From positions 1,450 to 65,449 of the IMG/VR virus record IMGVR_UViG_3300033146_000447: a DNA stretch of 64,000 nt; one strand, written 5' to 3'. The translations under genes were made by a program, and so were the position numbers. Every line of letters starts with the position of its first letter. The stretch's first letter is position 1. Shown here in pieces: positions 36,933-39,385 of the stretch. The notes beneath the pieces are model-generated. The model was given only the letters and a program-made list of their open reading frames with translations. It had not been told where the DNA came from and did no database searches. This stretch comes from a virus. Lineage: Duplodnaviria > Caudoviricetes.

Positions 36933-37043
36933 TGTTGTTATTATTATTTAGTTGTTATTATACTTATTAGGCATCATGTATTAAAAAGCATGATAACACT
37001 TCAACATGTAATATTAAAACGTTACATGTTGAAGTGTTATCAA

Positions 37044-37370
37044 CTATTGCTTTTTGTAATCTTCAATCATTTTCTGAAAGTCTTGTATATCTTTTTCTGT
37101 GGAATTATACCTAAGCGTGTCCGAAAAATATATTCCCTCATCTCTCCCTGCATGTTCAGTATTTTCAATTAGTAAATCTATAAATTTACTTTTAGTAGGC
37201 AACACGTTGCTAACAAACTGTATAGGTAAATTTACCTTGCTCGTATTCAACTTCGCAGCTTGTTCGCTTTTGATTCTGTGCCATTCCATTACTTTTTCTG
37301 ACTTAATTTCATCTTCTCTGATGAAATCATCTATTAGTCTATCTTCGGGGTTATCGCTCACTTTTGTCAT
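37044..37370 (-). CDS. Cassette ORF 1, hypothetical
   Basis: 108 aa; stop abuts the cassette boundary; contains VNLPIQFVSN encoded by the attC-like arm. Confidence 0.65.
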   Translation of the reverse strand: MTKVSDNPEDRLIDDFIREDEIKSEKVMEWHRIKSEQAAKLNTSKVNLPIQFVSNVLPTKSKFIDLLIENTEHAGRDEGIYFSDTLRYNSTEKDIQDFQKMIEDYKKQ

Positions 37371-37441
37371 TTTATCTTCGTTTTAAATTATTACGTTATT
37401 TATTGGATAAATCTACCCATACAGCCATTCATTATACCACA

Positions 37442-37657
37442 TTAAGGTATAATATAGTTGTTATCGCATTTACTGCAATACTTAAGGTCATTGCTATTAT
37501 CAATTCCTTTTGTTGCTAATATAGGCTTATGTTTACATACAGGGCAAACAAAATGTATGTTACAGCAATCTTTAAATTCTTCTAAATAACGTGGTATAAC
37601 ATTAGATATAGCCAAATTGCCGTTCTCTGTATTTACATTCTTTTCTTTATTCTCCAT
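37442..37657 (-). CDS. Cassette ORF 2, Zn-ribbon protein
   Basis: 71 aa; CPVC...CSKC; GNLAISNVIP encoded by the arm. Confidence 0.65.
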   Translation of the reverse strand: MENKEKNVNTENGNLAISNVIPRYLEEFKDCCNIHFVCPVCKHKPILATKGIDNSNDLKYCSKCDNNYIIP

Positions 37658-37723
37658 TGTATTTCAATTTAAGTTATTTACTAATTTTATAGGGCAATCA
37701 GCCCATATCTAAACCGTTAGCAA

Positions 37724-38038
37724 CTATAAATTGCTTAACAGTTCATCTGCTAATTTATCGTAGTCTCCAATTTCTAACATTGTTATTTGTGGTCGGTTCA
37801 TTTTCTCAAACACTGCAATTAACAGTTCCCTGCGGTTGCTAACAACAGGTATAGTTAAGTTTGCTTCGTTTGTATTGTCTTTCGTGGTTAGTTCGCTTAG
37901 TAATCTTTCAGCAACTTTAAATCCTTCAATGAAACCATCTTTTACACTATTATAGTCGTGTGGGAAGTCGCTTTTAAATTCACAAACATTTGCATATTTT
38001 CTTGCTAAGTCTGTTATAAATTCTATTTTTGTATTCAT
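37724..38038 (-). CDS. Cassette ORF 3, hypothetical
   Basis: 104 aa; ANLTIPVVSN encoded by the arm. Confidence 0.65.
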   Translation of the reverse strand: MNTKIEFITDLARKYANVCEFKSDFPHDYNSVKDGFIEGFKVAERLLSELTTKDNTNEANLTIPVVSNRRELLIAVFEKMNRPQITMLEIGDYDKLADELLSNL

Positions 38039-38117
38039 TACGCTCTCAATTTAAGTTTATATCTCGTATTATCTTCGTAGGTCAATCAAAGGCAAACCTA
38101 ACTATACCTGTGGCTCG

Positions 38118-38432
38118 TTAGCCTTCATTTCCCAAAGCCCTATTTATTGCATCAAGCATTTCATCCAATACGGGTTTTGTTAAGTAGTTTCTTTCTCCAC
38201 TGCATCTGTAAGCAGATTGTAAAGCATCTAATAATTTAGGTGCATTTGCTATTAAGTTAGCATCAGCACGTTTATTTAAGCTTTCACAAACAATATAACC
38301 ACCATAATATCTTTTTTCAGACTCATAATCTTTTTCATTGTATGTTGGTCTCAATGTCTTTTCATCAGTAACTATATTGCTAAAATGATTACCTATTTTC
38401 CAGTTCCCTTTTGTTCCTTTAAATTCCTGCAT
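38118..38432 (-). CDS. Cassette ORF 4, common small phage protein
   Basis: 104 aa; FKGTKGNW...ANLIANAPKLLDALQ; TAA stop coincides with the TTA of the boundary core. Confidence 0.7.
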   Translation of the reverse strand: MQEFKGTKGNWKIGNHFSNIVTDEKTLRPTYNEKDYESEKRYYGGYIVCESLNKRADANLIANAPKLLDALQSAYRCSGERNYLTKPVLDEMLDAINRALGNEG

Positions 38433-38684
38433 CTTTCTAAGGTTTAAAACGAAAGCCTAACACTAAGTATAGCAAATAAGCTTTCTAAGTTTGTATTAAA
38501 TTATTAAATTCTATCTATGGTTTACATTACCATATTATTGTCGTTATACTTTATTAGTCATGTTAAACCCTGTAGCACTAGCATTATTACGGCAGTGATA
38601 GGACTACTAGTGACTACAGGGTAATGAAAATAACAACCGAACTATGAAGCTCGGTTATTATCTGAAACCATTGATGATTTGAAA

Positions 38685-39294: not shown

Positions 39295-39385
39295 AGGTAA
39301 GAACAGGATTCGAACCTGTAACCATAGTTGTCGATAACTACCGCTCAGCCATATGTGTTTACCCACCTTCGAGACGTATCTTACC
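39295..39385 (-). ncRNA. tRNA-like element / atypical tRNA
   Basis: 7-bp acceptor stem GGTAAGA/TCTTACC and canonical T-arm ACAGG-TTCGAAT-CCTGT; D and anticodon arms non-canonical; no CCA. Confidence 0.6.

What the first reader, a model, noticed from the sequence alone, without database searches (positions are those of the whole stretch)
37206..38117. Cassette ORFs start inside the giant attC-like loop and translate through the recombination arm
Seen: the ORFs are antisense to the usual cassette orientation. The start codon and A-rich leader (AA(C/T)TTAAA...ATG) lie in the ~70-230-nt loop between the arms. All three ORFs cross the TAAC arm in the same frame, giving a shared peptide in otherwise unrelated proteins: NLPIQFVSN, NLAISNVIP, NLTIPVVSN, with Val encoded by the GTT core. 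Stop codons sit at or next to the opposite boundary core. Inference: the recombination site doubles as coding sequence. Crossover at the internal core would swap N- and C-terminal halves in frame, which would be a protein-domain shuffling system.
Basis: partly seen in the sequence, partly recalled or inferred. Interest (0 to 1): 0.8.

Follow-up and report, generated by a model that had tools for sequence, protein, structure and literature searches.

The report
Phage genes translated through recombination hairpins
Three small genes of a crAss-like phage each start inside an integron-type DNA hairpin and are read in one fixed frame through its far arm, and related viruses carry the same front and back protein halves in many other pairings.

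Summary
Three adjacent minus-strand genes (37044-38038) each have a 20-30 nt imperfect inverted repeat. One arm follows the previous gene's stop. The loop holds an A-rich leader, the ATG and 13-59 codons. The other arm is translated as x-L-x-I-x-x-V, with GTT read as Val. The six arms form one motif family, and I found no other copy in the 64 kb.

The hairpin family recurs in at least 15 IMG/VR phage loci and in Polaribacter phage P12002L. In Bacteroidota chromosomes it forms arrays of 11-12 repeats separating toxin-antitoxin cassettes, next to a Xer/IntI-like tyrosine recombinase. So these are attC-like sites of an integron-like system.

In other phages, 9 of 10 loop-started ORFs cross the arm in the same frame. 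Covariation supports the stem.

Of 29 database relatives of the three proteins, none keeps both halves: 14 share only the front and 15 only the back, at up to 97% identity.

Not shown: which enzyme makes the swap, and whether the cut falls at the in-frame GTT. No recombinase lies in this contig, which is 69% complete.

Phage attC clusters are published (Qi 2023). I found no paper on translated hairpins that re-pair protein halves. Earlier notes of this scan report the same layout on other genomes.

The parts
36991..37042 (-). Perfect 21-bp hairpin with a 10-nt loop directly after the ORF1 stop. It starts with an AAC box (sense GTTGATAAC) that matches the GTT box at the start of the ORF1 back half in 8 of 9 bases. 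It is probably the next, short attC-like site, and it may also terminate transcription.
   Evidence: (I1)
37044..37370 (-). ORF1, 108 aa. The front half (residues 1-41) is encoded in the loop, the arm peptide is NLPIQFV, and the back half starts at Ser-Asn.
37199..37241 (-). Unit 1 translated 3' arm, with GTT box 37206-37214 on the + strand
37371..37403 (-). Unit 1 A-rich leader in the loop, upstream of the ORF1 ATG
37404..37434 (-). Unit 1 5' arm with a degenerate AAC box (AAT). The box is complementary to the GTT-box flank of unit 2 in 9 of 10 bases.
37442..37657 (-). ORF2, 71 aa. It has a minimal 13-residue front, the arm peptide NLAISNV, and a zinc-ribbon-like back half with CxxC motifs.
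37587..37627 (-). Unit 2 translated 3' arm
   Evidence: (I11)
37658..37687 (-). Unit 2 leader in the loop
37688..37723 (-). Unit 2 5' arm. Its AAC box (sense GTTGCTAAC, 37716-37724) follows the ORF3 stop directly and is the exact 9-nt complement of the GTT box at the start of the ORF3 back half.
37724..38038 (-). ORF3, 104 aa. The front half is a two-helix module also found alone in other phages. The arm peptide NLTIPVV falls in a low-confidence linker. The back half is a two-helix module.
37833..37868 (-). Unit 3 translated 3' arm, with GTT box 37835-37843 on the + strand
   Evidence: (I3)
38039..38087 (-). Unit 3 leader in the loop
38088..38124 (-). Unit 3 5' arm. The ORF4 stop codon TAA lies inside its GCTAAC box.
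38118..38432 (-). ORF4, 104 aa, phrog_1273, function unknown. It is the upstream cassette-like gene. In some metagenome contigs it alone is skipped between conserved flanks.
38439..38495 (-). Conserved stretch upstream of ORF4 with a short local hairpin that ends in a GTT box (GTTAGGC). It had the highest summed contig depth in the two marine runs.

Best explanation
The three genes belong to a phage-borne row of integron-like cassettes.

The junctions between cassettes are attC-like hairpins. Each has an AAC box, a small asymmetric internal loop, a 16-20 bp stem with fixed G-T/G-U wobbles, a variable loop and a GTT box. This is the same family that forms cassette arrays beside a Xer/IntI-like tyrosine recombinase in Bacteroidota chromosomes.

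In the phage, the genes run on the strand that folds best. As a result:
- the 5' arm sits at the previous gene's stop;
- the loop carries the leader, the ATG and an N-terminal module of 13-59 codons;
- the 3' arm is translated in one fixed phase (x-L-x-I-x-x-Val, GTT = Val) as a floppy linker;
- the body after GTT is the C-terminal module, which ends at the next AAC box.

Every unit keeps the same phase, so any exchange at the GTT box gives an in-frame chimera. Database relatives show that such re-pairing has happened repeatedly for all three genes.

Shown: the hairpins and their covariation, the family link to recombinase-associated arrays, the fixed frame, the complementary cassette ends, and the re-pairing of halves.

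Inferred: that the loop ATGs are the real starts; that a recombinase of the host or of a co-infecting phage acts on these sites; and that the half-swaps are recombinase cuts at the inner box (my estimate about 0.4) rather than microhomology or homologous events at the same conserved box (about 0.35).
For: Hairpins in the window.

Family in other phages:
- The 5'-arm pattern hit 60 IMG/VR stretches.
- 15 loci, chosen from the ungapped screen, have a complementary 3' arm with duplex energies of -28 to -52 kcal/mol. The GTT was not part of the pattern but is present in 17 of 17 arms aligned.
- The family is also in phage P12002L.

Structure:
- Compensatory changes occur in 5 of 20 and 10 of 20 predicted pairs, and there are invariant G-U pairs.
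- The sense strand folds better than the antisense strand in 24 of 24 distinct units.

Frame: 12 of 13 loop-started ORFs of 60 aa or more read GTT in phase 0.

Bacterial arrays:
- L068 has 11-12 direct repeats, 435-1827 bp apart, separating HepT/MNT cassettes. L156 carries MazF and PIN cassettes.
- A 404-aa tyrosine recombinase has its best NCBIfam hits to 'tyrosine recombinase/integron integrase' and to integron integrase, both below cut-off.
- Its best homologue lies on the array contig in 4 of 5 genomes.
- One of 6 phage records has a 223-aa relative (40% identity) overlapping a hairpin-bearing ORF.

Cassette ends: the window's back halves are bracketed by inverted 9-10 nt boxes matching in 9/9, 9/10 and 8/9 bases. 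The same holds in L068 at 5 of 5 junctions read by eye.

Re-pairing of halves:
- 0 of 29 relatives keep both halves; 14 are N-only and 15 C-only.
- C-halves 92-97% identical follow unrelated arm peptides.
- Contigs of two marine runs skip exactly front half 3, front half 1 or ORF4 between conserved arms and leaders.

Linker: the arm peptide lies in a low-confidence coil between helical modules (weak model, pLDDT 63, pTM 0.28).
Against: - No tyrosine or serine recombinase is in the 65-kb record, which is 69% complete. Only 1 of 6 phage records examined has one.
- The array recombinase scores below the curated integron-integrase cut-offs (198 against 265 bits). Its match to IntI4 (2a3v) is split in two, and its best solved relative is XerA.
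- I saw no single-base extrahelical bulges in the long stem.
- Loops of up to about 240 nt are far beyond canonical attC sites.
- Published chemistry puts the cut at AA|C of the bottom strand. If the phage sense strand is that strand, the cut lies in the outer box, not the translated one.
- No read-level evidence of excision or swapping exists for this phage. Only two runs hold small pieces of the stretch, and only as contigs.
- Translation from the loop ATGs is inferred, not measured.
- The protein search works by shared words and by a length window, so whole-gene relatives could have been missed.
Confidence: 0.6

Rival explanations
1. The hairpins are conserved regulatory cassettes that act in the mRNA. 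They would display the leader and start codon in a loop closed by a stable stem, or stabilise or process the polycistronic early transcript. The shuffling would be a by-product of ordinary homologous or microhomology recombination between these repeated 30-100 nt scaffolds. This resembles the promoter/stem-loop cassettes reported for T4-type phages, a comparison I recall from memory and did not read here.
For: - The gene-sense strand, which is also the mRNA, folds better in 24 of 24 units, with G-U pairs at fixed places.
- The start codon sits 31-59 nt after the 5' arm.
- Leader, 5' arm and 3' arm are the pieces conserved in metagenome contigs, while the cargo between them differs.
- Hairpins are shared between loci whose flanks on both sides are unrelated.
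- Most phage records have no recombinase.
Against: - The same hairpins form arrays beside a recombinase in bacteria, where the genes run on the other strand. There an mRNA role in the sense orientation cannot explain their conservation.
- Complementary cassette-end boxes are a recombination-site signature.
- Near-identical back halves abut unrelated arms, which leaves at most about 9 nt of homology for a homologous event.
- 'Empty' hairpins with loops of 3-29 nt carry no start codon.
Confidence: 0.25
2. These are canonical-type cassettes read backwards. The recombinase cuts only at the outer AA|C box, so whole genes (hairpin, front half and back half together) are the mobile units. The front halves then reached the loops by separate, rare insertions, so the arm is not a dedicated shuffling point.
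For: - Gene orientation in bacterial arrays and recombinase synteny make the phage sense strand the bottom strand.
- The cut position comes from Nivina 2016 (PMC5027507, passages read).
- The stop codon TAA lies inside the outer box in 5 of 17 units that have an upstream ORF.
- Minimal fronts (MNTD../MENK..) look like one ancestral loop ORF into which larger modules were inserted.
Against: - None of 29 relatives keeps both halves, which is hard to square with whole-gene mobility as the main process.
- The junction is sharp at GTT.
- The extra unpaired bases lie on the 5' arm of the sense strand. By the published anatomy, where extrahelical bases lie near L'', this fits a top strand.
Confidence: 0.12
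3. It is chance or shared ancestry: three paralogous genes that kept a common peptide motif, with no hairpin function.
For: The front parts of ORF1 and ORF3 show weak similarity (39% over 51 aa, E 6e-5 for a single comparison).
Against: - An inverted copy of the motif lies upstream of each gene, in non-coding DNA.
- Arms differ between units but stay complementary within a unit, with compensatory changes.
- The family occurs in many unrelated genes, and as empty hairpins.
Confidence: 0.02

Closest known systems
Integron attC sites and cassette arrays, including attC clusters without an integrase (CALINs) in virulent phages (Qi et al. 2023, PMC9892861: abstract, section 3.4 and passages read)
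   Same: - Imperfect hairpin with an AAC box and a GTT box at its base, an unpaired spacer next to the boxes and a variable terminal loop.
- Direct arrays separating small cassettes.
- Complementary cassette ends.
- One strand folds better than the other.
- A tyrosine recombinase sits beside the arrays in bacteria.
- Qi et al. list a CALIN with two methyltransferase genes in Polaribacter phage P12002L. I find hairpins of this family around that phage's methyltransferase genes.
   Different: - The genes run on the opposite strand to the bacterial cassettes.
- The start codon and up to 59 codons lie in the hairpin loop, and one arm is translated in a fixed frame.
- Loops reach about 240 nt.
- I saw no clear extrahelical bases.
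- The associated recombinase is Xer-like and scores below the integron-integrase cut-offs.
- The coordinates of Qi's P12002L sites are in supplements that were closed, so I could not confirm they are the same hairpins.
Short ORFs in attC sites and fused cassettes in class 1 integrons (review PMC8876359, passages read)
   Same: Translation can start in, or run through, an attC region. Loss of an attC can fuse two cassette genes into one protein.
   Different: Those are single accidents or short reinitiation ORFs. Here an intact hairpin is part of the reading frame as a rule, with one phase across many phages.
Promoter/stem-loop cassettes (PeSLs) that flank shuffled ORFs in T4-type phages
   Same: Repeated regulatory stem-loop units in a phage early region that flank variable small ORFs and mark exchange points.
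   Different: As I recall them, PeSLs lie between genes and act through homologous recombination. The units here reach into the coding sequence and belong to a family linked to a recombinase.
Shufflons and other multiple-inversion systems (recalled from memory)
   Same: Site-specific recombination sites inside coding sequence that exchange protein ends.
   Different: Shufflons invert segments between inverted sites and swap C-termini of one gene. Here the translated boxes of successive genes are direct repeats, all modules point the same way, and inversion would give no product.

Membership tests
Integron attC site | Hairpin-forming imperfect inverted repeat with conserved AAC and GTT triplets at the base (R boxes) | tested here: met
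   AAC and GTT are invariant in two alignments (8 of 8 and 6 of 6 units). GTT is present in 17 of 17 3' arms although it was not in the search pattern. Window unit 1 has AAT in place of AAC.
Integron attC site | Unpaired central spacer between the R box and the L box | tested here: met
   An asymmetric internal loop of about 4-5 nt on the 5' side and 1 nt on the 3' side lies next to the AAC/GTT pairs.
Integron attC site | Extrahelical bases near L'' that set strand choice (Nivina 2016, PMC5027507, passages read) | tested here: inconclusive
   No single-base bulges appear in the 16-20 bp stem of most units. The only extra bases are in the spacer on the 5' arm of the sense strand.
Integron attC site | Variable terminal structure | tested here: met
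   Loops range from 3 to about 244 nt. These are longer than any canonical site I know of, a comparison I recall from memory.
Integron attC site | Cassette-end complementarity: the first bases of a cassette are complementary to the box before its own hairpin | tested here: met
   In the window the matches are 9/9, 9/10 and 8/9 bases. In bacterial locus L068, 5 of 5 consecutive junctions read by eye fit.
Integron (complete) | An integron integrase (IntI with its extra domain) adjacent to the array | tested here: not met
   The window's record has no PF00589 or PF00239 match. In bacterial relatives the adjacent recombinase scores 198.5 bits against TIGR02249 (cut-off 265) and 209 against NF040815 (cut-off 220). 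Its match to IntI4 is split, and XerA is its best solved relative.
Integron (complete) | Recombinase-catalysed exchange at AA|C of the folded bottom strand | not testable with these tools
   This needs an assay. Qi 2023 report IntI1 recombination of one P12002L site. That it is the same hairpin could not be confirmed, because the supplements were closed.
CALIN (attC cluster lacking an integrase) | Two or more attC-type sites close together with no integrase nearby | tested here: met
   Three long hairpins plus the 21-bp hairpin lie within 1.2 kb, and the record has no recombinase. I could not run IntegronFinder or HattCI.

The most novel reading that the evidence does not exclude
Bacteroidota phages keep a combinatorial library of tiny early proteins. 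An attC-like hairpin acts as an in-frame joint between a front module carried in the hairpin loop and a back module carried in the cassette body. A Xer-like recombinase, from the host or from a phage, cuts at the translated GTT box. Each event then makes a new, always in-frame two-module protein. This would be a DNA-level counterpart of exon shuffling with one intron phase, possibly used to diversify anti-defence proteins.
Probability: 0.3. Interest if true: 0.85.

Novelty: new variant of a known kind. Interest (0 to 1): 0.7.

Why it matters
Integrons are known as devices that move whole, promoterless genes.

Here the recombination-type hairpin is itself part of the reading frame. It supplies the start codon and a protein front half, and it keeps one codon phase across many phages. 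The sequence record shows front and back halves re-paired again and again.

If a recombinase does this, integron-type recombination would extend from gene shuffling to protein-module shuffling, and it would give phages a fast way to vary small early proteins.

It also ties crAss-like and other marine Bacteroidota phages to the cassette arrays of their hosts.

There is a practical point as well. Gene callers and attC finders will mis-annotate these loci unless they allow a gene to start inside a hairpin.

Tried and rejected
- Close relatives of the phage. Single-protein scans of IMG/VR with ORF3, ORF1, the 544-aa neighbour and the helicase found nothing. blastn against the phage collection found nothing. 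The tool notes that the window's own record, or near copies, may be left out.
- Profile scans. The back-half alignment A3 found no locus in IMG/VR or in metagenome contigs. The front-half alignment A4 found one IMG/VR locus and seven metagenome loci, one of them the same contig. Only L187 among the new loci carried hairpin units.
- Rfam. No family matches the hairpins in the window or in five bacterial loci. The miRNA-like hits are just the perfect 21-bp hairpin.
- Promoter reading. The sigma-70 scan was not above shuffles (83 found, 68 expected). The arms match the Bacteroidetes -7 motif (recalled from memory) only in some units, and covariation between arms argues against a plain protein-binding consensus.
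- Invertible segment or shufflon. I rejected this because empty units have loops of 3-29 nt and all modules point one way.
- RNase III. No phage-encoded enzyme was found. I could not test host processing.
- Sequencing runs. Only two DNA runs hold small shares of the stretch (0.08 and 0.05), both as contigs, and no RNA holder was listed. So there is no read-level test of excision, inversion or RNA ends.
- Linking hairpins to cargo. Comparing units whose hairpins are alike showed unrelated flanks on both sides, so this cannot tell which box is cut. Duplicated cassettes in L068 were equally ambiguous.
- Literature. My searches found no paper describing genes that start in attC loops or half-protein re-pairing at attC sites. 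These searches cover open-access text only, and supplements were closed.
- Pfam, PHROGs and the structure model gave no function for ORF1-3.
Full report
**What the window is.** The window is 64 kb of a 65,449-base IMG/VR virus record judged 69% complete. It encodes giant proteins of 2,722 and 1,746 aa, a DNA polymerase, primase, helicase, large terminase, portal and major head protein. GC content is about 32%, and the strands switch at about 14 kb and 44 kb. From this gene set I read it as crAss-like. The finding lies in a block of small minus-strand genes.

**The observation.** ORF1 (37044-37370), ORF2 (37442-37657) and ORF3 (37724-38038) contain NLPIQFVSN, NLAISNVIP and NLTIPVVSN.
- Each motif is encoded by one arm of an imperfect inverted repeat. 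The partner arm lies just upstream of the same gene's start codon.
- The six arms align to one motif. A profile of them finds only these six sites in the window, at E 3.4e-6 to 3.7e-3, with the next hit at E 3.1. This is partly circular, because the profile was built from them.
- Folding the sense strand pairs the arms, with z-scores of -3.2, -2.3 and -5.3.
- The loops (about 60, 160 and 220 nt) hold an A-rich leader, the ATG and 13, 46 and 59 codons.
- The stop of the gene upstream lies inside or just before the outer arm.

**The hairpin is a family.** A pattern taken from the outer arm hit 60 IMG/VR stretches.
- About half of them belong to two conserved, apparently coding families or are single chance hits.
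- In 15 loci that I picked from that screen, a complementary arm follows 3-244 nt downstream, with duplex energies of -28 to -52 kcal/mol.
- These 3' arms share ..CTATAC-4 nt-(T/G)GTT. The GTT is present in 17 of 17, although it was not searched for.
- Some units are 'empty', with loops of 3-29 nt and no start codon, so the hairpin is an element in its own right.
- Two alignments give a consensus stem with compensatory changes in 5 of 20 and 10 of 20 pairs, and with invariant G-U pairs at fixed positions.
- In 24 of 24 distinct units the gene-sense strand forms the more stable duplex, by 4.5 to about 20 kcal/mol.

- The six with a family-type 3' arm, plus one probable, are all Bacteroidota: four loci from three Bacteroidales MAGs, one Marinilabiliaceae MAG, Croceivirga and Eudoraea.
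- Locus L068 holds 11-12 direct copies of a roughly 230-nt version of the hairpin, 435-1827 bp apart. Between the repeats in L068 and in L095/L156 lie HepT/MNT, MazF, PIN/DUF6364 and SIMPL genes. These are typical cargo of chromosomal integrons.
- L095 encodes a 404-aa tyrosine recombinase. Its best NCBIfam hits are 'tyrosine recombinase/integron integrase' (209 bits, cut-off 220) and integron integrase (198.5 bits, cut-off 265).
- Its best homologue lies on the array contig in 4 of 5 genomes: 90% identical and 2.4 kb from L068; 44% identical and 2 kb from L171; a pseudogene 28 kb from L170.
- Its closest solved relatives are XerA and, as a split match, IntI4.
- Consecutive hairpins in L068 show cassette-end complementarity.

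I therefore call the system integron-like, and not a canonical integron.

**Link to published work.** Integrons are reported in Bacteroidota (PMC8618304, passage read). attC clusters without an integrase are reported in virulent phages, including Polaribacter phage P12002L (PMC9892861: abstract, section 3.4 and passages read). I find hairpins of this family around the methyltransferase genes of that phage. One of them has gp41 starting in its loop. I could not check that these are the published sites, because the coordinates are in closed supplements.

**Orientation.** In the bacterial arrays, 6 of 6 Pfam-supported genes lie on the strand opposite to the one reading AAC-box to GTT-box. In the phages the genes lie on that same strand.

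**Frame.** Among 18 phage units with loops of 50 nt or more:
- 12 have an ATG-started ORF that begins 31-59 nt after the 5' arm and reads GTT in phase 0;
- one uses another phase;
- five have no clear ORF or are cut off or mis-paired.

Leaving out the window's three units, that is 9 of 10. The consensus arm is open in two of the three frames, so this is not forced by stop codons.

**Cassette ends in the window.** Each back half is bracketed by inverted 9-10 nt boxes.
- The boxes around ORF3's back half match 9 of 9 bases.
- Those around ORF2's match 9 of 10, which explains why unit 1's outer box is degenerate.
- Those around ORF1's match 8 of 9, the second box being the start of the perfect 21-bp hairpin at 36991-37042.

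That hairpin is therefore probably the next short site of the row, as well as a terminator-like structure.

**The shuffling test.**
- ORF3's 25 database relatives fall into 13 that share only the front half (74-96% identity) and 12 that share only the back half (65-97%). None shares both.
- The other halves are mutually unrelated or absent.
- ORF1 has two relatives with its back half (82% and 95%) under other fronts, and one with its front (94%) on another back.
- ORF2's one relative has the same back half (84%) under a 47-residue longer front.

In total, 0 of 29 keep both halves. Identity starts or stops within a codon or two of Val-Ser, and near-identical back halves follow unrelated arm peptides. 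The junction is therefore sharper than homologous recombination within the arm would give.

Further points bear on this:
- The front module of ORF3 also exists alone or fused elsewhere.
- A weak AlphaFold model (pLDDT 63, pTM 0.28) puts the arm peptide in a low-confidence coil between two helical pairs. This fits a passive linker.
- Contigs from two marine runs share the arms and leaders at 85% identity or more, but skip exactly front half 3, front half 1 or ORF4. These are contigs of other organisms, not reads of this phage.

**Mechanism: what is and is not settled.** The window's record has no tyrosine or serine recombinase. One of the five other phage records does. It is a 223-aa enzyme overlapping a hairpin-bearing ORF, 40% identical to the bacterial array enzyme.

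Published work places the cut between A and C of AAC on the bottom strand, and places extrahelical bases near L'' (PMC5027507, passages read).
- Bacterial gene orientation, recombinase synteny and strand stability make the phage sense strand the bottom strand. The cut would then be in the outer box, often inside the previous stop codon (5 of 17 units), and whole genes would move.
- The extra unpaired bases on the 5' arm and the complete lack of front-back co-inheritance point the other way, to the translated GTT box.

I could not resolve this. I put about 0.4 on recombinase cuts at the inner box and about 0.35 on microhomology or homologous events there. The rest goes to insertion of fronts into loops or other routes. 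A role of the hairpin in the mRNA may coexist with any of these.

**Novelty and earlier notes.** My literature searches turned up phage CALINs, short ORFs in attC sites and fused cassettes (PMC8876359, passages read). They turned up nothing on intact, translated hairpins with a fixed phase, or on re-pairing of half-proteins.

After my own analysis I looked up earlier notes of this scan. They describe the same integron-like system, and the same loop-start and frame rule, on many other genomes. They agree with what I found here but are unchecked AI notes, and I do not count them as evidence.

**Verdict.** This is a new variant of a known kind.

Noticed in passing
window 39295-39368 (-): Weak tRNA-like match (Rfam tRNA-Sec, 24.1 bits against a gathering score of 47, E 0.11) between two small genes.
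   Followed up: no
window 38560-38615 (-): Strong local hairpin followed by TTTAAC, upstream of the ORF4 leader. It is possibly the terminator of the preceding transcription unit (fold).
   Followed up: partly
window 38439-38495: This stretch upstream of ORF4 has the highest summed contig depth (190-296) in a marine sediment run. It appears to be a very common conserved leader or short-hairpin module in that sample.
   Followed up: partly
L068 1-8000 (Bacteroidales MAG): A gene-less element of about 240-290 nt recurs five times between hairpins. It always starts after a GTT box followed by AGGG and ends in the matching box. It may be a non-coding cassette.
   Followed up: partly
L192 1453-2539 (-): In one phage, a 223-aa Xer-like recombinase gene overlaps by 11 bases the end of a 141-aa ORF. 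Residues 9-17 of that ORF (QLNIPVVGS) look like a translated hairpin arm.
   Followed up: partly
L021 and L062: Two identical empty hairpins with 100% identical flanks lie 2,453 bases apart in each locus, so there is a long direct duplication.
   Followed up: no
phage units, 13 nt before the AAC box: In 5 of 17 units the upstream gene stops at a TAA exactly 13 nt before the box. In another 5 the stop is the TAA inside the box. The recurrent -13 position is unexplained.
   Followed up: no
window 37724-38038 and L186, L189-L191: The front module of ORF3 (consensus ..EFIxDLARKYANxCEFKSDFPHD..DGFIEGFK..) is a widespread small two-helix domain of unknown function. It occurs alone (57-62 aa) or at the C-terminus of larger proteins.
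   Followed up: partly
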